DNA of 44,504 nt from a virus (taxonomy: Duplodnaviria; Heunggongvirae; Uroviricota; Caudoviricetes). Numbering within the stretch: the first letter of the stretch is position 1; the number at the start of each line of letters is the position of its first letter. The notes below the pieces were generated by a model, which ran no database searches, was not told where the DNA came from, and saw only the letters and a list, made by a program, of their open reading frames with translations. Location of the stretch: the IMG/VR virus record IMGVR_UViG_2537561991_000021; one strand, given 5' to 3'. Below, one piece after another: positions 5,012 through 44,504 of the stretch. Both the position numbers and the translations under genes were made by a program.

Positions 5012-5364
5012 TACGCCTCCGATTTAACAGTCGTTATTCCATAGAGAGTGTCGATTTCAGCGGAAAACATGACACGTCGGGTCGTGGTATCCACCGTCGT
5101 ATTGAAAGAGAGGATTGATTTAACGCCCCGCGTTTCGAGGATGCGCTTACGGATCGCCAGGTTGTAGGTTTCCGGCTTCTGCTTACCGAGCACAGACTGG
5201 ATCCACGGGGTCCCTTCGGTGGTGTCGAGAAACCATTGCCCATACCACAATTCAAATCGCGTTTTTACCGCCTGCGCCACGGCCTCCGGTGAGTTAATCA
5301 GCCAGGTGTCATCACCGCTGCCAAAGGTGTAATCGCCATCGGCGTCTTCACGTCTGTATCGCAT
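5011..5364 (-). CDS. small baseplate protein (Mu gp46 / gp25-like wedge)
   Basis: 117 aa between the spike-like and J-like genes. Confidence 0.55.
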   Translation of the reverse strand: MRYRREDADGDYTFGSGDDTWLINSPEAVAQAVKTRFELWYGQWFLDTTEGTPWIQSVLGKQKPETYNLAIRKRILETRGVKSILSFNTTVDTTTRRVMFSAEIDTLYGITTVKSEA

Positions 5365-6113
5365 CAGTTTACCCTATCGGTATTGCTTCCACCGCGCTGA
5401 ACACCGCCATGAGTGTGCGTATCATCGATTGGCTTGCCGTTAGCCTTCACGCTCCCCAAAAACTCAACAGCACCAGTGATTTTTGAAGCCACACCAGAAA
5501 CCACAGACCCCACCATGCCCCCCATCCAGGTTAACAGGCCATGAATGGTTACTTTCTCAGAAAAATCAGCCAGAGGGGCAACCACATCAAGACCACCCGG
5601 AGCGACAATTTTAATTTTCCTGGTATCAGGATTAAGCTCAAAATAGGTGCTGCCGTCATCACTACGCAACTGTGTGGCACTGGTATTAATACCGCTAATC
5701 CTCCTTGCCTGCGACTGGGGACCGACAATACAAAACGCATCCGATAAATCATGCATTCTGTCATCGACCGTCTCCTGTATCCCGCCACTCTGCCACCAGA
5801 AATCGATGCAGCGATCGGCAAAAATCACCAGGCATTCATCGCCGGCTTTTACCGGGAAAGTTAACGTGCAGCCGCCGCCGCGCGGAAATACCACCGGCAC
5901 ATCCACCAGCAGCGGGTAATTTTTGGTTACGCGGTTGCCGTCGTTGTCGGTTTCAACCGAACGAATAGCAGGCTGCACAACCGCCGTCACCGCGTCAGGA
6001 TCGAATGACTGAACGATGCCAGGCAAAGCGACGCGGATCTGGTTCTTTGTGGTTTCCCGCTCGGATTTGAATGTTTCGGCAAGGTCGCCGCTACGAGTCT
6101 GGTCTGATATGGC
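5364..6113 (-). CDS. baseplate assembly protein V-like (spike)
   Basis: Resembles the gpV/gp45 N-terminal OB-fold region (VKAGDECLVIFADR). ATG at 6113 with an AGGAG RBS; the ORF track's TTG at 6149 lies inside the upstream terminator. Confidence 0.65.
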   Translation of the reverse strand, partial: AISDQTRSGDLAETFKSERETTKNQIRVALPGIVQSFDPDAVTAVVQPAIRSVETDNDGNRVTKNYPLLVDVPVVFPRGGGCTLTFPVKAGDECLVIFADRCIDFWWQSGGIQETVDDRMHDLSDAFCIVGPQSQARRISGINTSATQLRSDDGSTYFELNPDTRKIKIVAPGGLDVVAPLADFSEKVTIHGLLTWMGGMVGSVVSGVASKITGAVEFLGSVKANGKPIDDTHTHGGVQRGGSNTDRVN

Positions 6114-6178: not shown

Positions 6179-6349
6179 TTATTTTTTCTGTTTAAAATTG
6201 TCCAACTCAGGTTCTTTAACGCTTTCTGTCATGTAATCCAATCCACCAAAAGGTACTTCAAGCATTATACTGCTTTCATAATCAGCCATGGATTGCTCTG
6301 CTTGCGTTGGCTTGCTTTGCTGTGAGTTGTCATTATTTGATGTTGTCAT
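6179..6349 (-). CDS. small hypothetical protein (56 aa), third gene of the cassette
   Basis: ATG-initiated ORF MTTSNNDNSQQSKPTQAEQSMADYESSIMLEVPFGGLDYMTESVKEPELDNFKQKK, below the ORF-track size cutoff; lies between the membrane-protein gene and the terminator. Confidence 0.4.
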   Translation of the reverse strand: MTTSNNDNSQQSKPTQAEQSMADYESSIMLEVPFGGLDYMTESVKEPELDNFKQKK

Positions 6350-6352
6350 CAA

Positions 6353-6907
6353 CTATGCCTTATTTATCAAAAGAAAAGTAACCGATAATATGAAAAAACC
6401 GAAAGATAACGCAATTCCTTCAAAAAGATAACGAGCGTAAACTGCCTTTTCTTTATGAAGACTTTCGATCAATTCAACAGCTTTACCATACTGAAACATA
6501 TGGTATCTAAGCGTTTTAATTTTATCACCGTAAAATAAAAAATCATGCTCTTCTTTTCGCTTATGAATAGGCATTTTTGGTATATCTTTCAGTCCCCAAG
6601 TACGCCATAGGAAAAAAAAGCACATAACAATACAAACAAAGCACAGATATGCACAAAGTATAGATAATGTTAAAAACCAATTACTCTTTAGCCCACTTTT
6701 GAAATCAACAGTCCCAAATACAGCCAGTAGAGCAGAGGTTTCTACAGCTAAAATAGCAAGAAGGTAGTTAACTTTGTCCTCAAGACGACGATATGTTGAT
6801 TTTGCTTCCTCATATCTATCTTTATAATATGACGAAATAAAATCAGCGCCTATAGTCTCAATTGCCTTTTGTTCTTCTGTTGTATCTATTGACGAACGCT
6901 TGCTCAT
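6353..6907 (-). CDS. hypothetical membrane protein, AT-rich accessory gene
   Basis: 184 aa with a charged N-terminal region and hydrophobic helices (LLAILAVETSALLAVFGTV, WFLTLSILCAYLCFVCIVMCFFFLW, GIALSFGFFILSVTFLLI). Much lower GC than flanking tail genes. Confidence 0.7.
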   Translation of the reverse strand: MSKRSSIDTTEEQKAIETIGADFISSYYKDRYEEAKSTYRRLEDKVNYLLAILAVETSALLAVFGTVDFKSGLKSNWFLTLSILCAYLCFVCIVMCFFFLWRTWGLKDIPKMPIHKRKEEHDFLFYGDKIKTLRYHMFQYGKAVELIESLHKEKAVYARYLFEGIALSFGFFILSVTFLLINKA

Positions 6908-35888: not shown

Positions 35889-36518
35889 TCACTCAGGAAT
35901 CTTAATCTTTCTCAATTCTTTATTTAGTTCACAGTTCTTTTTCTTAGACGGGAAAGTATCATACATCCAAAAACCAACAGTCTCTAAAACTATTATCATA
36001 ACCATATACACAAGATAATTTAAAAGGCCTTCATTTTGCCCTATGGAAATAATGCAGATAATAGAAAAAAGGGTAAACAGCACAAAACACAGAAAGGAAA
36101 ACAGACGACTAATAATAAATAAAAAACCTGAAAAATCAACATTAATAAAAAACACTCCGTTATCTTTCTCTATATAATTCTGAAGCTTAATCAACTGATT
36201 TATATACTGTCTTTTTTCTAATCTATTGCAAATGTAAATAACATCTCTTCGGTTATAAGATGATTGCAATTTCAGCGCATCACGAATAATTTTATCATTT
36301 ATTCTTTTTTCTATGGCACTCTTATCCTCCTCATCCAGATAACGTTCATACTTAACTAAATATAAAATTAACTTCTTAACATATTTAGGCTCTTTATACT
36401 TATAATTAAAAATGATCTTTCTTATCCAGACTCCCATAACAATCAAACATGAAAAAATATATCCAGCTATTTTCTCCAGATGCTCTGTATGGTCAATCAA
36501 GTATTGGATCATATGCAT
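35889..36518 (-). CDS. AT-rich hypothetical membrane protein, antisense to the early operon
   Basis: 209 aa, Lys/Ile/Tyr/Asn-rich, with hydrophobic helices (IFSCLIVMGVWI, FLFIISRLFSFLCFVLFTLFSIICIISI, YLVYMVMIIVLETVGFWMY); GC far below flanking phage genes. Confidence 0.65.
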   Translation of the reverse strand: MHMIQYLIDHTEHLEKIAGYIFSCLIVMGVWIRKIIFNYKYKEPKYVKKLILYLVKYERYLDEEDKSAIEKRINDKIIRDALKLQSSYNRRDVIYICNRLEKRQYINQLIKLQNYIEKDNGVFFINVDFSGFLFIISRLFSFLCFVLFTLFSIICIISIGQNEGLLNYLVYMVMIIVLETVGFWMYDTFPSKKKNCELNKELRKIKIPE

Positions 36519-38692: not shown

Positions 38693-39454
38693 ATGCAGGA
38701 ACTAACTGAAATGCCGATCACCTATCCATACCCGAGAGAAACTTTTCCTGACTTTTTGAGGGAGTGTGGGTTCACCAATTTTTCCCACGAACAGCGTGAG
38801 ACTTGTGACTGCTATCGTTTAACGAATGGCGTAATTGTTAACCTTTACACCACCCGGACCATTCAGTTTCAAGGTAACCCTCAAGAACGTCCCAATGTTG
38901 AAACTGCAATAATGACCCATTTAGGAACGCCGCCCACGGCAACACCACTAGCCGTAGAACAGCCATCTGAGCTCCCCAAAAAGATATTCATTGTTCACGG
39001 CCATGACCATACTGCAAAGGAGCAACTTGAGCTAATCCTTCATAAACTTGGATTACCAGACCATTTCATTTTGCAGAATACGGGAGGGACTGGACTCACC
39101 ATTATTGAAGAGCTTGAACGTGAAATTGGGCAAGGACAAACTGCTACCCGTTTCGGGATTGTTCTTTTGACACCTGATGATATGGGATACTCAAAGCGCG
39201 CCGGTGAAGCAGAAATCCAACCCCGCGCAAGACAGAACGTTGTACTCGAGATGGGTATGCTTCTTTCGTCCTTAGGGCGCAGCAATGTAGCAATCCTTCA
39301 GAAACAGCACCTAGAACAGCCTTCTGATGCTAACGGGATTTTGTATCTGAATTTCAACGACCATGTACGTGAAACAGTTCCTCGTCTAGTGCAACGGTTA
39401 CAAAATTCTGGTTTCGAATTTACACAAGCTCAAATAGCTAACGCTTCCTCGTAA
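38693..39454 (+). CDS. TIR-like domain protein (predicted nucleotide-binding TIR-like fold) with a unique N-terminal domain
   Basis: 253 aa; C-terminal region KIFIVHGHDH...GIVLLTPDDMG...ARQNVVLEMGMLLSSLGRSNVAILQ...PSDANGILYL matches the recalled consensus of the TIR-like nucleotide-binding family. Lower GC than neighbours; own RBS and terminator. Confidence 0.6.
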   Translation: MQELTEMPITYPYPRETFPDFLRECGFTNFSHEQRETCDCYRLTNGVIVNLYTTRTIQFQGNPQERPNVETAIMTHLGTPPTATPLAVEQPSELPKKIFIVHGHDHTAKEQLELILHKLGLPDHFILQNTGGTGLTIIEELEREIGQGQTATRFGIVLLTPDDMGYSKRAGEAEIQPRARQNVVLEMGMLLSSLGRSNVAILQKQHLEQPSDANGILYLNFNDHVRETVPRLVQRLQNSGFEFTQAQIANASS

Positions 39455-39517: not shown

Positions 39518-39652
39518 ATGTCATTTAAATACCGGGACAGTCCGCTTTATTACCGGACTGTGCGGGAGGCTTTGCACCTTGAACAGTCCGGCGGGTACGA
39601 CCGGGCGATGCAGGTCTGGGCCAAAGCGAACGTCGGTTTGATTTTTGTCTGA
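39518..39652 (+). CDS. small hypothetical protein (44 aa)
   Basis: ATG ORF MSFKYRDSPLYYRTVREALHLEQSGGYDRAMQVWAKANVGLIFV between the terminator and the zinc-finger gene; below the ORF-track cutoff. Confidence 0.3.
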   Translation: MSFKYRDSPLYYRTVREALHLEQSGGYDRAMQVWAKANVGLIFV

Positions 39653-39688
39653 TGCAGAACATGCGCGAAAAGCGTAAGGAGGTGGACG

Positions 39689-39883
39689 ATGTCTAATATC
39701 GATAATAAGGGTTGGGGGTTCCCCGCTCTGTCAAAAAAAGCACATTTCTTTAATTCGGGGGAAGCCATATCACTATGCGGAAAATGGATGTTCATAGGTA
39801 TCAGGATTGATGAATGGCATGACCATCCTGAGAACTGCGCTATCTGCATGAAGAAACGCAAAAAGCAGGAAGGCGAAAGCTAA
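39689..39883 (+). CDS. small zinc-finger-like protein
   Basis: 64 aa with a strong AAGGAGG RBS; Cys/His cluster (C...HDHPENCAIC); stop overlaps the VRR-NUC start (TAATG). Confidence 0.55.
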   Translation: MSNIDNKGWGFPALSKKAHFFNSGEAISLCGKWMFIGIRIDEWHDHPENCAICMKKRKKQEGES

Positions 39884-40170
39884 TGGCCTATGAACGTGAA
39901 AACCTAATCGAAAAGCACCTCGTCGCTGAAGTAAAAAAGGCTGGCGGGGTTGCCTTTAAGTTCGTATCCCCCGGTCGCCGCTCGGTACCAGATCGCATTG
40001 TTCTGCTACCCGGCGGTCGTATCATTTTCGTTGAATGTAAATCCCCCGGCAAGCCACCACGGCCTGACCAGTTGCGCGAACACGGACGGTTGCGCGCGCT
40101 GGGCTTTACCGTAGTGGTGCTGGATAGCAAAAATCTGGAGGCCATTATTTTAAGCCGCAATAAAGGATAA
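39883..40170 (+). CDS. VRR-NUC domain nuclease
   Basis: 95 aa; PD-(D/E)XK-type residues in DRIVLLPGGRIIFVECKSPGK, as in VRR-NUC proteins. Confidence 0.7.
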   Translation: MAYERENLIEKHLVAEVKKAGGVAFKFVSPGRRSVPDRIVLLPGGRIIFVECKSPGKPPRPDQLREHGRLRALGFTVVVLDSKNLEAIILSRNKG

Positions 40171-40182
40171 AAGACTTATGCT

Positions 40183-40980
40183 TTAATCCGTATTTTTAAC
40201 ACGTATTTCGAAACACCCTTTTAATTTAGCTATTTCCTTTTTAGAGGACATGATTGTGAATCTCATCCCTTTTAAATCATTAACAAATTCAAATTTTGCG
40301 CTATTTGACTCACAATCACCAACAACAAAACCACTACCAAATGAATTGAGCAACACTTTAGTATTACTACCATCTACCATATAATATTCGTTATTTTTAA
40401 ATGCAGTAACCTTCCCGAATGTATAGCTCAATATCAACAACGTTATCACCCCTAAAGGAAAAGCTGACTTTAGGATTTTTAAATCGATATAATAAAATAC
40501 GTTCTTATACTCTGCAAGCCTCCCAAATTTTCTAATGCTCTCCATATGATGTTCGTGTCTCTTACTATGGATTGGCATGGACACCACATTGTGATAATTC
40601 AACAAAAGCATAGCAAATAATAAAATATCCTGAACACTCATCACAGAAGTTTCGGAGAAATAACCAAAAGGCCAATGAAATCCTATTATACAAATATTAG
40701 CCATTAGCATAACAACTATAAATACAATAAATGGAACATAATATTTCCCTTTCAAATCAAACATCAACGCCGCATATAAGGCGCCGAGAAATAAAAAACT
40801 AAAAAACAAAAGCCACACAGCCGAATACAATAGCGTATTTAAGTCTATTTTAATAAAAAGGTCTGGATAGCCATAATACGATGCAACACCTTTCTGAAAA
40901 GAATATGCCATCGCATAAGCTAACGCTGAAAACATAGTTAATAAAGAAACTTGCTTTGTAAATATTTTCGCCAGGGGCAT
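40183..40980 (-). CDS. AT-rich polytopic membrane protein with C-terminal soluble domain, antisense to the early operon
   Basis: 265 aa; strong GGAGG RBS; five or more hydrophobic helices in the N-terminal 150 aa and a soluble C-terminal domain of about 110 aa; very low GC. Confidence 0.65.
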   Translation of the reverse strand: MPLAKIFTKQVSLLTMFSALAYAMAYSFQKGVASYYGYPDLFIKIDLNTLLYSAVWLLFFSFLFLGALYAALMFDLKGKYYVPFIVFIVVMLMANICIIGFHWPFGYFSETSVMSVQDILLFAMLLLNYHNVVSMPIHSKRHEHHMESIRKFGRLAEYKNVFYYIDLKILKSAFPLGVITLLILSYTFGKVTAFKNNEYYMVDGSNTKVLLNSFGSGFVVGDCESNSAKFEFVNDLKGMRFTIMSSKKEIAKLKGCFEIRVKNTD

Positions 40981-41043
40981 ACCCGCCTCCGTTAGTTATA
41001 TATATAGAGAGAGAAGTGACCATATTCTACCATAGGTGTATTA

Positions 41044-42438
41044 ATGAATAGCATATTCCACCCCAGAGTTTATCAAAACCTCATAATCAATCACCAAACT
41101 AACATTCTGCGCGGCAACATCTGGGCGGGTATGGGAATGGGTAAAACCGTGGCAACGCTCACTGCGCTGGAAGATCTCTTTATGGCAGGGGCAGAAACAT
41201 GCCCCGCACTGGTCCTCGCGCCGCTGCGCGTGGCTGCCAGCACATGGCCGGATGAAGCACTGAAGTGGGGACATTTGCGCAATATCGAGGTGCAGCCAAT
41301 TATTGGTAATGCCAAAGCGCGCTCTATGGCGCTGACGAACAGCAACGCAAGCGTGTTCACCATCAACTACGATAACCTTGTCTGGCTGATTGAAGAATTG
41401 GGAGAACGATGGCCGTTCGGTACTGTCATTCCAGATGAAAGCACCCGGCTAAAATCCTTCCGGCTGCGCGGTGGTGGTAAGCGCGCGGCGGCGCTGGGCA
41501 AAGTGGCGCATAAGTATGTCCGGCGCTGGATAAATCTCACCGGTACGCCAGCACCGAACGGCCTGGTAGATTTGTGGGGACAATCGTGGTTTGTGGACCA
41601 GGGGCAACGTCTCGGGCGCACTTACGGCGCGTTTACCTCACGCTGGTTCAACTCGATACAGTTTCCGGGGCAGAGCTGGACCAAACTGGAGCCTTTTGCT
41701 CACTCACAGGGTGAAATACAGCGAGCGTTAGCCGATGTAACCCTCTCGCTGGATGCGGCCGACTGGTTCGATATCAAAGACCCCATCCATAACGTAATCC
41801 GCGTGGATATGCCACCGAAGGCCCGTCAGCAGTATCGTGAAATGGAAAAGGAAATGTTCCTCGAGCTGAATGGCGAAGGCATCGAAGCACCGAACGCCGC
41901 GGCAAAGACACTGAAGTGTCTGCAAATCGCCAGCGGCGCAGTATACACAGATGACACCGGAAGTTGGTCAGAACTGCATGACACCAAACTACAGGCGCTG
42001 GACAGCATACTGACCGAAGCAGCTGGCGCACCTGTGCTGGTTGCTTATCACTGGAAACACGATCTTGAACGCTTGCTTAAAGCATTCCCTCGCGGTCGTC
42101 ACCTCGACCAGGATCCACAGACACTGCGCGACTGGAATTCCGGAAAGATTCCTGTTCTCTTTGCACACCCAGCCAGCGCGGGCCACGGCCTGAACATGCA
42201 GGACGGCGGAAATATACTGGTATTTTTCTCACACTGGTGGGACCTGGAGCAATATCAGCAAATTATTGAACGTATCGGCCCCACCAGGCAGATACAGGCC
42301 GGACACAATCGTCCGGTATTTATTCACCACATTATTGCTGCCGACACTATGGATGAAATGGTGATGGAGCGGCGCAACTCAAAACGAACAGTGCAGGACA
42401 TCCTGCTCGATGCCATGAAAAAGAGAGGTATAGCATGA
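41044..42438 (+). CDS. SNF2/DEAD-like superfamily II helicase
   Basis: Walker A GMGMGKT, DExx box VIPDESTRLK, C-terminal helicase motifs (GHGLNMQ, QIIERIGPTRQ). Confidence 0.8.
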   Translation: MNSIFHPRVYQNLIINHQTNILRGNIWAGMGMGKTVATLTALEDLFMAGAETCPALVLAPLRVAASTWPDEALKWGHLRNIEVQPIIGNAKARSMALTNSNASVFTINYDNLVWLIEELGERWPFGTVIPDESTRLKSFRLRGGGKRAAALGKVAHKYVRRWINLTGTPAPNGLVDLWGQSWFVDQGQRLGRTYGAFTSRWFNSIQFPGQSWTKLEPFAHSQGEIQRALADVTLSLDAADWFDIKDPIHNVIRVDMPPKARQQYREMEKEMFLELNGEGIEAPNAAAKTLKCLQIASGAVYTDDTGSWSELHDTKLQALDSILTEAAGAPVLVAYHWKHDLERLLKAFPRGRHLDQDPQTLRDWNSGKIPVLFAHPASAGHGLNMQDGGNILVFFSHWWDLEQYQQIIERIGPTRQIQAGHNRPVFIHHIIAADTMDEMVMERRNSKRTVQDILLDAMKKRGIA

Positions 42439-42635
42439 GCGAGAAACCCGACGATTTACTCACCCCGGATGAAGTATGCCAAAAGTTAGGTATTACACAG
42501 AAAACGCTATGTGAGTGGAATATTAAGCATCGTCATCGGGCTATCCTGGCACCAATTCGTTTCAGTGCAAAAGTAGTTCGTTATGAGCGCCGAAATATCG
42601 ACGCTTTTATTCAAAAATGTCGCAGCCAGTATTAA
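42435..42635 (+). CDS. xis: excisionase / AlpA-like DNA-binding protein
   Basis: 66 aa; LLTPDEVCQKLGITQKTL HTH with downstream basic region; last gene of the early operon, converging on the integrase. Confidence 0.6.
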   Translation: MSEKPDDLLTPDEVCQKLGITQKTLCEWNIKHRHRAILAPIRFSAKVVRYERRNIDAFIQKCRSQY

Positions 42636-44035
42636 CCTCGCCGCCGTAGCAATGCCACCTGCGCAAGTATGCTCCGCTCGTGAGCCTCGAAAGCTTCGCG
42701 CTTCAACGCAATCTCTTCCTGTAAAATCTCATCAGAAAAGTCGTAATGTTCTGCCATCGGGTCATCTGACTTGCTGGAGTGGTGAAGGCAAAGGAGGCTG
42801 ATTTCCCTTCGGTCTGAGCGGGAATAGCCTCTTTCCTTCATCAAGGCAATAACATTGCTCTTAAGGAATTTACGGCACATCGTATTAAATGCACCGTCTT
42901 TCCCTTTAACAGTCCCATCATGTTTTATTCCTTTTACAGCCCCGTCCGGGCTGTATGTTTTCACCAGCTTATCCAGTGATCGTTTTGAAAATGGCTGCAT
43001 TGGATCACGTGGCTGCAAAAATACATAATCCCTGTTGCACTCAGGAACTGAATCACGCCAGGCTTTCTGCTCGTCGATAATCCGCCGGATCTCAGGGGTT
43101 ATCGGCAGGCGGAAAGCCTTTTGTGTTTTCATAGCCCCTCGCATGCCGATAACCCCTTCCGGATAAACAATTTCACCAGCCTCCTCGTGAACGTAGTCCC
43201 AGCGCAGGTTATGGACATTAATCGGACGAACACCAGTGATGATCATGAAGCGAACAGCATTCTTCTGGTGTACAGAGGTGCAGGCAGCAACATTGAGCCA
43301 GAGTCGGGCGATTGATTCAATATCGGTAAAAAGCCGTGTGGGGGTAGGTTTCTGTACGCGGGAGGAAACATAATCATCTGGCAGACTGGCGGCAACATTG
43401 CGGCCGTTGCAAAGAGTAGGTGCGCAGAACTTCCAGAACCGACGGAGCTCGGCAAACAACTCCAGGGCGTTATTGTTCGAGCGAGTAGCGATCCACTCGT
43501 CCAGCACTTCCACCAGCCGATTGTATGTTACGTCGCTGAACACCTCGCGCTCGCCGAACGTTGCTTTAATCCGGTCGATACGCACCCCGTAGGTTGTGAA
43601 ACTGTCCGGGCTCAGCTTCTGCCGGGCGACTTTGGCTTTGAGGTCATCCCGGTACATTTCCAGCGCTGCATGTACGGACTCTGCCCGCAGGCCACCGTCA
43701 GCCATACCTAGCGCTTTTTCGCGCGCCAGCTGGATAGCGAGCTCCGGCCACTCGCCGAGCTTTTTACCTTTGAGGCCCATCTTTTTTGGAAACTCGGCGT
43801 AAAATGTAACCTTACCGGCTTTGCTGAAATCGATACGGAGATAGTTCTCTTTTTCGTATTTGGAACGGCGAGCCACGCCGGAAGCAGCGAGGATGATTTT
43901 GGCGGCAGCAACACAGATTTTCATGTGTGCGCTAGTATAGGGGGGTTTACAGGCGTCCCATTTTTCAGAAGCGGCTAAAACATCGTCATTATTGGGGCTA
44001 TCCGGATTATGTGTTACAGTGCGCGGCATTCTCAA
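42632..44035 (-). CDS. int: tyrosine-type site-specific integrase
   Basis: C-terminal catalytic region (GVRPINVHNLRWDY, LLCLHHS, EHYDFS) with a candidate arm-binding N-terminal domain. The ORF-track start is TTG; the true start is probably an internal ATG. Confidence 0.75.
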   Translation of the reverse strand: MRMPRTVTHNPDSPNNDDVLAASEKWDACKPPYTSAHMKICVAAAKIILAASGVARRSKYEKENYLRIDFSKAGKVTFYAEFPKKMGLKGKKLGEWPELAIQLAREKALGMADGGLRAESVHAALEMYRDDLKAKVARQKLSPDSFTTYGVRIDRIKATFGEREVFSDVTYNRLVEVLDEWIATRSNNNALELFAELRRFWKFCAPTLCNGRNVAASLPDDYVSSRVQKPTPTRLFTDIESIARLWLNVAACTSVHQKNAVRFMIITGVRPINVHNLRWDYVHEEAGEIVYPEGVIGMRGAMKTQKAFRLPITPEIRRIIDEQKAWRDSVPECNRDYVFLQPRDPMQPFSKRSLDKLVKTYSPDGAVKGIKHDGTVKGKDGAFNTMCRKFLKSNVIALMKERGYSRSDRREISLLCLHHSSKSDDPMAEHYDFSDEILQEEIALKREAFEAHERSILAQVALLRRRG

Positions 44036-44234
44036 TCCTTATCTGCGTAGGCGCAGAAAACAAGCTCACACATACAAGTCTTTTCTACGGGACAAAATGC
44101 AATGTGTTGCGGTTTAGTGTTGCTGGACTGAGTTTATCAAGGTTAAATACACTGGATCAACATACAGTAAGTTAATGACAGTAAAGCATACAAACTCGAT
44201 ACAACTTACTGATTTTAAAATGATTTAACGGTAA

Positions 44235-44504
<270 letters not shown>

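What the first reader, a model, noticed from the sequence alone, without database searches (positions are those of the whole stretch)
40171..41043. Antisense, AT-rich polytopic membrane protein embedded between VRR-NUC and the SNF2 helicase
The 265-aa ORF at 40183..40980 is on the opposite strand to the entire early operon. It has a strong GGAGG RBS, five or more hydrophobic helices and a soluble C-terminal domain of about 110 aa, and its base composition is far more AT-rich than the surrounding genes. Opposite-strand cargo inside a phage early operon is typically expressed from the lysogen. I could not match it to any family I know.
Basis: partly seen in the sequence, partly recalled or inferred. 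Interest (0 to 1): 0.65.

Follow-up and report, generated by a model that had tools for sequence, protein, structure and literature searches.

The report
Prophage membrane protein in defence slot
This is a real gene for a five-helix inner-membrane protein of unknown function, carried as swappable cargo in a prophage slot that in related prophages holds known anti-phage genes, so it most likely helps the lysogen keep out other phages, though nobody has tested that.

Summary
A 265-aa ORF at 40183..40980 (minus strand) has a GGAGG ribosome-binding site and GC 0.33 against about 0.50 in the flanks. It is under purifying selection (dN/dS 0.12-0.28). One detail is wrong: the soluble C-terminal domain is about 70 aa, not 110. 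A confident AlphaFold2 model (pLDDT 91) shows 5 transmembrane helices, a cytoplasmic loop, and a small beta domain plus helix with two invariant cysteines, predicted to be periplasmic.

The gene matches no family in the local Pfam, NCBIfam or PADLOC libraries, and no fold in PDB or BFVD. It belongs to a small family that newer Pfam calls PF27470 'TfpB'. I confirmed remote, collinear homology to the uncharacterised tfpB ORF of the Moraxella pilin inversion region. It is not a TfpY/FimB-type pilin accessory protein.

Family members are always solitary, AT-rich genes. Seven of the nine contexts examined are in three unrelated temperate phage types; one is a decayed prophage and one a lone chromosomal gene. 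In this phage family the VRR-NUC/SNF2 slot is a cargo hotspot: other prophages carry BstA, TIR-like genes or DUF6338 proteins there. 39 of 126 E. coli prophages carry one of two about 26%-identical alleles of this family.

Best explanation (about 0.42): a lysogen-expressed superinfection-exclusion or defence protein acting at the periplasmic face of the inner membrane. The function is inferred from context, not shown.

The parts
40183..40980 (-). Coding sequence of the 265-aa TfpB-family membrane protein (stop codon at 40183..40185).
   Evidence: The ORF is listed. It is 100% identical to a gene annotated 'hypothetical protein' in E. coli FDAARGOS_1059 and is present in 17 of 5426 complete E. 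coli genomes. dN/dS is 0.12-0.28. The chance of such an open frame is about 5e-10.
40986..40990 (-). Shine-Dalgarno sequence GGAGG, 5 nt upstream of the ATG.
   Evidence: Read directly from the sequence.
41024..41032 (-). Candidate extended -10 promoter element TGgTAGAAT, 44-52 nt upstream of the ATG; the -35 is poor.
   Evidence: Read from the sequence. The same element is conserved upstream of the Raoultella and P0007 alleles, and analogous TGnTAnnnT elements lie 43-49 nt upstream of the start in the Yersinia and Enterobacter relatives. The simple two-hexamer scan did not call it. This is a prediction only.
40396..40944 (-). Membrane domain, residues 13-195. TM1 is 13-36, TM2 47-76, TM3 81-98, TM4 116-135 and TM5 167-195, with a basic cytoplasmic loop at 136-166.
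   Evidence: AlphaFold2 model built on 73 sequences, pLDDT 91.1 and pTM 0.86 (model numbering +1). Hydropathy and charge distribution support it: 8 K/R in the 135-175 stretch, none in 105-118.
40840..40917 (-). Family signature at the end of TM1 and the first predicted periplasmic loop: Y22-x3-Y26-x-F-Q29-x-G31...Y36-G-Y-P39-x2-F-I-x2-D46-L47.
   Evidence: This is the most conserved segment in both the 15-sequence and 73-sequence alignments. It is also the part that matches phrog_35408 and Moraxella TfpB.
40186..40395 (-). C-terminal soluble domain, residues 196-265: a small antiparallel beta sheet plus a terminal helix, with invariant Cys223 (40312..40314) and Cys256 (40213..40215). It is predicted to be periplasmic.
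   Evidence: Secondary structure comes from the model. The cysteines are invariant down to about 24% identity (tool numbering C222/C255). The topology is inferred from the positive-inside rule.
40130..41067 (.). Approximate extent of the exchangeable cassette, from the last codons of VRR-NUC to the first roughly 8 codons of the SNF2 helicase.
   Evidence: Homology to phage vB_EcoM-606R2 breaks and resumes at these points, while E. coli XH993, which carries the same cargo, stays aligned throughout.
39883..40170 (+). Left flank: the VRR-NUC nuclease gene. It converges on the cargo gene with a 12-bp gap and no predicted terminator.
   Evidence: Pfam PF08774 at E 0.0055; RefSeq annotation of the identical gene; terminator scan.
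41044..42438 (+). Right flank: the SNF2-family helicase gene, divergent from the cargo gene across a 63-bp intergenic region.
   Evidence: Pfam SNF2-rel_dom at 7.6e-11.

Best explanation
The gene encodes an inner-membrane protein with its N-terminus in the cytoplasm, five transmembrane helices, and a small disulfide-stabilised C-terminal domain in the periplasm. It is an autonomous single-gene 'moron' cassette carried by temperate phages. I propose three steps. (1) The cassette is transcribed from its own promoter in the lysogen, when the convergent early operon is repressed. (2) The protein inserts in the inner membrane and presents a conserved periplasmic surface made of the YGYP...D loop, the W-P-x-G loop and the C-terminal domain. 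(3) That surface interferes with an envelope step of an incoming phage, most likely genome translocation across the inner membrane, giving superinfection exclusion or defence to the lysogen. Shown here: the gene is real and under purifying selection, its anatomy, its family, its mobility between phage types, and its residence in a defence-gene hotspot. Inferred: topology, disulfide, lysogen expression, and the exclusion function itself.
For: **Cargo hotspot**
- The VRR-NUC/SNF2 slot holds at least seven alternative cargoes in related prophages.
- These include BstA (PADLOC 2.5e-110), a characterised prophage abortive-infection defence (PMC8585504).
- Two cargoes have TIR-effector-like hits.
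- Neighbouring slots carry a CAP12-type TIR gene matching PDC-S35 (6.8e-109), a SIR2 protein and an HATPase_c protein.

**The family travels as a solitary gene in unrelated temperate phages**
- Same slot in the same phage family in Raoultella (85% identity) and Yersinia (25% identity).
- Lambdoid prophages: between DinI and lambda-P and next to int-xis.
- A P2-like prophage: between tail genes S and V.
- It lies on the opposite strand to its neighbours in the polA/SNF2 and lambdoid contexts (same strand in the P2-like prophage), and its GC is 0.31-0.34 whatever the host.

**Allelic diversification at one locus**
- The O55:H7 CB9615 prophage has a 26%-identical homologue on the same strand in the same slot (E 1e-14), found in 22 genomes.
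- With the 17 genomes carrying the target, that makes 39 of 126 prophages of this family.
- The flanking genes are 89-95% identical.

**The functional face is extracytoplasmic**
- Conservation peaks at TM1 and loop 1.
- The Cys223/Cys256 pair is invariant.
- The cytoplasmic loop 136-166 is absent from most relatives.

**Other support**
- An own ribosome-binding site and an extended -10 element conserved with the cassette.
- Purifying selection.
- Not a housekeeping gene: 17 of 5426 E. coli genomes, and no NCBIfam or Pfam transporter match.
Against: - There are no expression or phenotype data.
- Residence in a hotspot is guilt by association. Such slots also carry a Dcm methylase and genes of unknown role.
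- Topology and disulfide are predictions.
- The only named relative, Moraxella TfpB, sits next to pilin genes rather than in a phage.
- One relative is a lone chromosomal gene after proBA.
Confidence: 0.42

Rival explanations
1. It is an abortive-infection membrane effector. The protein stays inert in the inner membrane until infection perturbs the envelope or a phage protein triggers it. It then permeabilises or depolarises the membrane and kills the cell before the phage completes its cycle, in the manner of RexB-type or transmembrane effectors.
For: The hotspot and moron evidence is the same as for the best explanation. The neighbouring cargo types, BstA and TIR, are abortive-infection-type systems. 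The protein is polytopic and helical. Weak compositional matches to small ion-channel chains were found (E about 0.003).
Confidence: 0.2
2. It is a pilin or pseudopilin-interacting protein. Like its distant relative TfpB, encoded between the pilin genes of Moraxella, it binds the membrane-embedded N-terminal helices of type IV pilin-like proteins (type IV pili, type II secretion pseudopilins). In a lysogen it would modulate or block such filaments, for example to exclude pilus-dependent phages.
For: Homologues have precomputed PF27470 'TfpB' hits. The family profile finds the M. lacunata tfpB ORF as the only significant hit among 4886 ORF segments from 80 pilin loci (E 1.9e-5). A collinear second hit in the frameshifted C-terminal part supports it. 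Phage-encoded inhibitors of type IV pili are a known exclusion strategy in Pseudomonas (PMC13436744 abstract).
Against: TfpB itself has no known function. None of nine contexts of the enterobacterial family contains a pilin gene. The family also occurs in Bacillus and an uncultured gut phage. The architecture differs from the characterised TfpY/FimB accessory proteins, which have 3 TM plus a large periplasmic domain (PMC11841053). No pilin-adjacent ORF in the other 79 loci matches. That type IV pili are poorly expressed in E. coli is my own knowledge.
Confidence: 0.12
3. It is a lysogenic-conversion factor that alters the envelope (LPS, O-antigen, ECA or another lipid-linked substrate at the periplasmic leaflet), or an orphan immunity protein against a membrane-targeting bacteriocin or contact-dependent toxin.
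For: It is an inner-membrane protein with a conserved periplasm-facing surface, carried by prophages. Both classes are typically polytopic inner-membrane proteins encoded on mobile elements (general knowledge).
Against: No similarity to Gtr, acyltransferase-3, GT-C or known immunity families was found. It has no partner genes and no adjacent toxin. It has no obvious catalytic motif beyond aromatic and Gly/Pro residues and one Asp.
Confidence: 0.12

Closest known systems
TfpB (Pfam PF27470), the uncharacterised ORF between the invertible pilin genes tfpQ/tfpI and next to piv in Moraxella bovis and M. lacunata
   Same: The homology is remote but collinear. The TM1 'AY.Y..G.A.Y.GYP' signature, the run of following transmembrane helices and the C-terminal 'Y.L....G...ILG' beta-hairpin all align (profile E 1.9e-5 and a second in-register hit). 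Homologues P0005 and P0009 carry precomputed PF27470 hits. Length and polytopic character are similar.
   Different: TfpB lies in a pilin inversion locus, not a prophage. It lacks the Cys pair (GEN instead of GxC). In the M. lacunata genome examined it is frameshifted. Its function is unknown, so membership does not explain the mechanism.
Prophage moron-encoded inner-membrane superinfection-exclusion proteins (HK97 gp15, P22 SieA, T4 Imm, lactococcal Sie2009), from my own knowledge of the literature
   Same: They are single small genes inserted as AT-rich morons with their own expression signals in temperate phage genomes. They are inner-membrane proteins with an extracytoplasmic part. One relative of the target sits among tail genes of a P2-like prophage, much as gp15 sits among HK97 tail genes.
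   Different: No sequence or fold similarity was detected. Those proteins have 1-4 TM segments and are smaller. The function of the target is not demonstrated.
TfpY/TfpZ/FimB-like type IV pilin accessory proteins (PMC11841053)
   Same: They are inner-membrane proteins of about 235-245 aa with an N-terminal helical membrane part and a periplasmic beta-rich C-terminal part.
   Different: TfpY-like proteins have three transmembrane helices and a large two-sheet periplasmic domain, and are encoded directly downstream of pilA (PMC11841053). The target has five TM helices and a 70-aa domain, has no pilin neighbour, and its profile does not hit pilin-adjacent ORFs in 79 non-Moraxella pilin loci.
BstA, a prophage abortive-infection protein (PMC8585504)
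   Same: It occupies the same VRR-NUC/SNF2 slot on the same (minus) strand in the E. coli O103:H2 12009 prophage. It is a single-gene prophage cargo.
   Different: It is an unrelated soluble DNA-binding protein, with no homology and no TM segments.

Membership tests
Pfam PF27470 (TfpB family) | Significant match to the family's profile HMM. | tested here: inconclusive
   The PF27470 model is absent from the local Pfam copy, which gave no hit. Precomputed hits exist for homologues: unmarked (E<=1e-5) for P0005 (63% identity) and P0009 (28%), weak for P0002 (85%) and P0007, faint for P0011, and none for P0018 and P0015. The target's own sequence has no precomputed entry.
Pfam PF27470 (TfpB family) | Detectable homology to the namesake Moraxella TfpB. 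| tested here: met
   The profile of the target's family (A5) hits M. lacunata L034 5687..6274 at E 1.9e-5 as the sole significant hit among 4886 ORF segments. The frameshifted continuation 6234..6467 aligns in register to profile positions 176-213. The score carries a high hydrophobic bias, so the homology is remote.
TfpY/FimB-like pilin accessory proteins | Three N-terminal TM helices followed by a large periplasmic domain made of a mixed sheet with a beta-alpha-beta motif plus an antiparallel sheet (PMC11841053). | tested here: not met
   The model shows five TM helices and a C-terminal domain of only about 70 aa: one small sheet plus a terminal helix.
TfpY/FimB-like pilin accessory proteins | Encoded immediately downstream of a major type IV pilin gene. 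| tested here: not met
   No pilin gene lies within 6-8 kb in any of nine contexts. The family profile does not hit pilin-adjacent ORFs in 79 other pilin loci.
Known anti-phage defence systems (PADLOC-DB v2) | Match to a model of a known or candidate defence protein. | tested here: not met
   Zero families at E<=1.
Superinfection-exclusion membrane proteins (functional class) | Prophage-encoded, single gene, located in the inner membrane. | tested here: met
   Prophage context; solitary cassette; five predicted TM helices. Membrane localisation is predicted, not measured.
Superinfection-exclusion membrane proteins (functional class) | Expressed in the lysogen and blocks entry of superinfecting phage DNA. 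| not testable with these tools
   Only a candidate promoter and ribosome-binding site are available. This needs transcript mapping and phage challenge.
   No Pfam or NCBIfam transporter match. PDB profile hits are only weak hydrophobic matches. The gene is present in 17 of 5426 E. coli genomes.

The most novel reading that the evidence does not exclude
The TfpB family (PF27470) is a previously unrecognised, fold-novel class of phage-borne, periplasm-facing inner-membrane exclusion determinants. Its highly diverged alleles (about 25% identity in one and the same prophage slot) would each block a different set of incoming phages at the genome-entry step. The long-unexplained tfpB ORF in the Moraxella pilin inversion region would be a domesticated or hitch-hiking member of the same class.
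Probability: 0.3. Interest if true: 0.65.

Novelty: new variant of a known kind. Interest (0 to 1): 0.5.

Why it matters
- If the proposed function is right, this adds a new single-gene family, with no match to any solved fold, to the short list of membrane proteins by which prophages protect their hosts at the cell envelope.
- It would define a natural allelic series (target type, CB9615 type, Yersinia type) for studying specificity.
- It marks the polA / VRR-NUC / SNF2 early region of this E. coli prophage family as a three-slot defence hotspot (TIR PDC-S35, SIR2, BstA, HATPase, DUF6338). That region is a ready source of further candidates.
- It gives a first functional lead for Pfam PF27470/TfpB, whose namesake has had no assigned role since it was sequenced in Moraxella.

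Tried and rejected
**Searches that found nothing**
- Local Pfam, NCBIfam and PADLOC gave nothing for the target. PHROGs gave only phrog_35408 (unknown function, E 0.029), which 19 of 73 family members hit.
- tblastn of the target, the CB9615 allele and P0015 against 50,697 phage records and (target only) 72,556 plasmids found nothing. No isolated phage in that collection carries the family.
- The PDB sequence profile gave only weak hits to small channels and designed transmembrane proteins, which I rejected as compositional.
- Literature searches for PF27470, the protein accessions, phrog_35408 and this hotspot found nothing. 'TfpB' in Acinetobacter is an unrelated ATPase. Asikyan et al. 2008 is not held.

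- The first structure prediction, with 8 close homologues, was unusable (pLDDT 46.8).
- The search for homologous proteins with the 73-sequence alignment saturated its candidate cap and returned almost only close relatives.
- The simple two-hexamer promoter scan did not call a promoter in 40981..41043, and no terminator was found downstream of the gene.

**Readings rejected**
- A TfpY/FimB-like pilin accessory protein: its defining features were tested and not met.
- A non-coding or spurious ORF: rejected on dN/dS, homologues and the chance calculation.

Full report
**1. The observation**

The window carries a 265-aa ORF at 40183..40980 on the minus strand. GGAGG lies at 40986..40990, five bases before the ATG. 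The ORF sits between a VRR-NUC nuclease gene (39883..40170, +) and an SNF2 helicase gene (41044..42438, +). It converges on the former with a 12-bp gap and diverges from the latter across 63 bp.

GC falls to 0.31-0.35 over the gene, against 0.49-0.55 on either side.

At this composition an open frame of 265 codons has a probability of about 5e-10. In 2000 shuffles of 40171..41043 the longest open frame was 140 codons, against 270 observed. Pairwise dN/dS against homologues is 0.12-0.28. The gene is real and encodes a protein under purifying selection.

The window is the right end of a prophage. A tyrosine integrase (42632..44035) abuts the chromosomal yfhL ferredoxin gene. The sequence is 100% identical to E. 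coli FDAARGOS_1059.

**2. Anatomy**

An AlphaFold2 model on only eight close homologues was useless (pLDDT 46.8). With a 73-sequence alignment of distant relatives the model became confident (pLDDT 91.1, pTM 0.86). My query lacked Met1, so tool numbering is one less than the protein numbering used here.

- TM1 is 13-36, followed by a short loop carrying the motif Y36-G-Y-P39...D46.
- TM2 is 47-76 and TM3 is 81-98.
- A loop follows with W103-P104-x-G106.
- TM4 starts at 116 and continues as a cytoplasmic helix to about 152.
- TM5 is 167-195.
- The C-terminus has a small antiparallel sheet (200-243) and a terminal helix (247-264).

The lysine and arginine distribution (2 at the N-terminus, 2 in 75-82, 8 in 135-175, none in 105-118) predicts N-in, C-out. 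The YGYP loop, the WP loop and the C-terminal domain are then periplasmic.

Cys223 and Cys256 are invariant in all enterobacterial relatives down to about 24% identity. This fits a structural disulfide formed in the periplasm.

Conservation is highest in TM1 and loop 1. The cytoplasmic loop 136-166 is missing in most relatives.

It is a cytoplasmic loop, a fifth helix and a 70-aa domain.

**3. Family**

Local Pfam, NCBIfam and PADLOC give nothing. PHROGs gives only phrog_35408 (unknown function) at E 0.029 over residues 11-75. Nineteen of 73 family members hit that PHROG, the best at 9.6e-9.

Close homologues are few: seven clusters at 57-92% identity, from E. coli, Raoultella and Enterobacter.

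An exhaustive profile search of 1.84 billion representatives finds only 72 relatives at E<=1e-3. They fall into two groups:
- A two-cysteine group of 229-265 aa from Enterobacterales (Serratia, Yersinia, Enterobacter, Izhakiella), all named 'hypothetical protein'.
- A longer group without the cysteines, from metagenomes, Bacillus cereus and B. toyonensis, Serratia liquefaciens, and a 'Bacteriophage sp.' assembly seen on 207 contigs.

**4. The 'TfpB' label**

Homologues carry a precomputed hit to PF27470, named TfpB. That model is newer than the local Pfam copy.

To test what this means, I fetched 80 type IV pilin loci from reference genomes with a Moraxella pilin N-terminus as probe. I then searched all 4886 open segments in them with the family profiles.

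The only significant hit (E 1.9e-5 with A5; 1e-4 with A4) is the ORF at L034 5687..6274 in Moraxella lacunata. It lies between a complete pilin gene and an inverted partial pilin gene, next to the piv invertase gene. That is the tfpB position as I recall it from the Moraxella inversion-region literature.

The next-best segment is the adjoining out-of-frame stretch 6234..6467. It aligns in register with profile positions 176-213, the C-terminal beta hairpin. The homology is therefore remote but collinear, and tfpB is frameshifted in this strain.

No pilin-adjacent ORF in the other 79 loci matched. The published TfpY/FimB accessory proteins have a different architecture: three TM helices and a large two-sheet periplasmic domain, encoded downstream of pilA (PMC11841053). 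The target is a TfpB-family member but not a TfpY-like pilin accessory protein. TfpB itself has no known function.

**5. Context: a mobile single-gene cassette in a defence hotspot**

Related phages vB_EcoM-606R2, 689R2 and 611R5 share both flanks at about 96% identity but have different DNA between them. Homology breaks within the last codons of VRR-NUC and resumes after the first roughly 8 codons of the helicase. A prophage with the same cargo aligns throughout.

The family's VRR-NUC gene is in 126 of 5426 complete E. coli genomes, and the target is in 17. Sampling the others showed these cargoes in the slot:
- a Dcm methylase plus a minus-strand BstA (PADLOC 2.5e-110);
- a 305-aa protein, and a split version of it, with weak TIR-effector hits;
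- two versions of a minus-strand DUF6338 membrane protein with a small proline-rich partner;
- a 236-aa minus-strand protein in O55:H7 CB9615.

BstA is a characterised prophage abortive-infection protein (PMC8585504).

The CB9615 protein turned out to be a 26%-identical homologue of the target, with the same motifs and cysteine pair (E 1e-14). It is present in 22 further genomes. So 39 of 126 prophages carry a member of this family in this slot, in two alleles that are almost unrecognisably diverged. The flanking genes are 89-95% identical.

Adjacent slots are also variable. Between polA and VRR-NUC there is a CAP12-type TIR gene (PDC-S35, 6.8e-109; here at 38693..39454), a minus-strand HATPase_c protein, or YfbU. 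Upstream of polA there is a 209-aa AT-rich membrane protein or a SIR2 protein.

**6. The family elsewhere**

- The Raoultella allele (85% identity) is in the same slot of the same phage family, integrated at a different site.
- A Yersinia relative at only 25% identity is again in that slot, on the opposite strand, in prophages at two different attachment sites.
- An Enterobacter relative (63%) lies between DinI and the lambda-P-type replication gene of a lambdoid prophage, opposite to its neighbours.
- An E. kobei relative (24%) lies next to int-xis of another lambdoid prophage, again on the opposite strand.
- A Y. massiliensis relative (25%) lies between tail genes S and V of a P2-like prophage.
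- A Serratia relative is a lone gene after proBA.
- P0007 lies in what its upstream helicase remnant and neighbouring Enc34-type and VRR-NUC-size genes show to be a decayed prophage of the same family.

All nine genes have GC 0.31-0.34, whatever the flanks (0.40-0.60). Five of them have an extended -10 element (TGnTAnnnT) 40-52 nt upstream of the start. In the window this is TGGTAGAAT at 41032..41024. Three of those five (this window, Raoultella and P0007) share homologous upstream sequence, so they represent three independent lineages rather than five. No pilin gene is near any of them.

**7. Mechanism**

The evidence points to an autonomous moron whose product works at the outer face of the inner membrane.

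I commit, at about 0.42, to superinfection exclusion or defence by interference with an envelope step of incoming phages, most plausibly genome entry.

The gene converges on the early operon with no terminator. This suggests, by inference only, that it is expressed when the early operon is repressed (lysogeny) and is suppressed by transcriptional interference during lytic growth.

The rivals are:
- a membrane abortive-infection effector (0.20). It is disfavoured because the cytoplasmic parts are the least conserved and there is no partner gene;
- a pilin or pseudopilin-binding factor by analogy with TfpB (0.12). It is disfavoured by the absence of pilin neighbours and by the family's presence in Bacillus;
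- envelope modification or orphan toxin immunity (0.12 together). There is no supporting similarity.

The remaining probability covers roles I cannot name. None of these was or could be tested here. The decisive experiments are listed in the next-steps field.

**8. Novelty and score**

The kind of thing is well known: a prophage moron encoding a membrane protein that protects the lysogen. This family has no characterised member, no match to a solved fold, and an unusual pattern of extreme allelic divergence at one locus.

I rate it a new variant of a known kind, with interest 0.5. It is a solid, testable candidate and a useful hotspot, but not surprising to a phage-defence specialist until a phenotype is shown.

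Noticed in passing
window 38693..39454 (+): A 253-aa protein with a CAP12/Pycsar-type TIR domain (PF10137, 2.9e-31). It is a near full-length match to the PADLOC candidate defence system PDC-S35 (6.8e-109) and to phrog_16442. It is encoded on the same strand as the early operon between polA and VRR-NUC. In other prophages of the family this slot holds an HATPase_c protein, YfbU, or ANR plus DUF4406 instead.
   Followed up: partly
window 35889..36518 (-): A second opposite-strand, very AT-rich gene (GC 0.29) just upstream of polA. It encodes a 209-aa protein with one N-terminal and about three C-terminal hydrophobic helices and no family match. It is conserved in most prophages of the family but replaced by a SIR2 protein in E. 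coli TUM1880.
   Followed up: partly
window about 39518..39700 (+): The small ORF at 39518..39652 corresponds to what RefSeq annotates in the near-identical IAI1 prophage as a frameshifted ANR-family transcriptional regulator. It is intact (about 70 aa) in O103:H2 12009 and TUM1880.
   Followed up: no
window 42632..44504: The prophage's right end: a 467-aa tyrosine integrase abutting the chromosomal yfhL ferredoxin gene. The same phage family uses other integration sites with other integrases, next to sbcB in Raoultella and next to aroC/mepA in Yersinia.
   Followed up: partly
L014 3783..4546 and L017 3800..4671 (E. coli TUM1880, BCE049): An alternative cargo for the same slot: a minus-strand DUF6338 membrane protein (195-206 aa, GC 0.34-0.35) always paired with a small proline- and glutamine-rich protein ending in APPPKKP. 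This is an uncharacterised two-gene module in a defence hotspot.
   Followed up: partly
L016 3801..4718 versus L001 4584..5075 and 5194..5505: The 305-aa cargo with a weak TIR-effector hit in E. coli NMBU_W05E18 is split into two ORFs (163 and 103 aa) in phage vB_EcoM-606R2. The cargo is probably inactivated in the isolated phage.
   Followed up: no
L034 5687..6467 (Moraxella lacunata NCTC10359): tfpB, between the two pilin genes and next to piv, is interrupted by a frameshift at about 6234-6274. Both parts still align to the family profile.
   Followed up: yes
window versus L002 (E. coli XH993): The cargo gene is more similar between the two prophage lineages (94.5% nt) than the adjacent VRR-NUC gene (89.2%), and about as similar as the helicase (95.5%). 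This suggests mosaic recombination around the slot.
   Followed up: no
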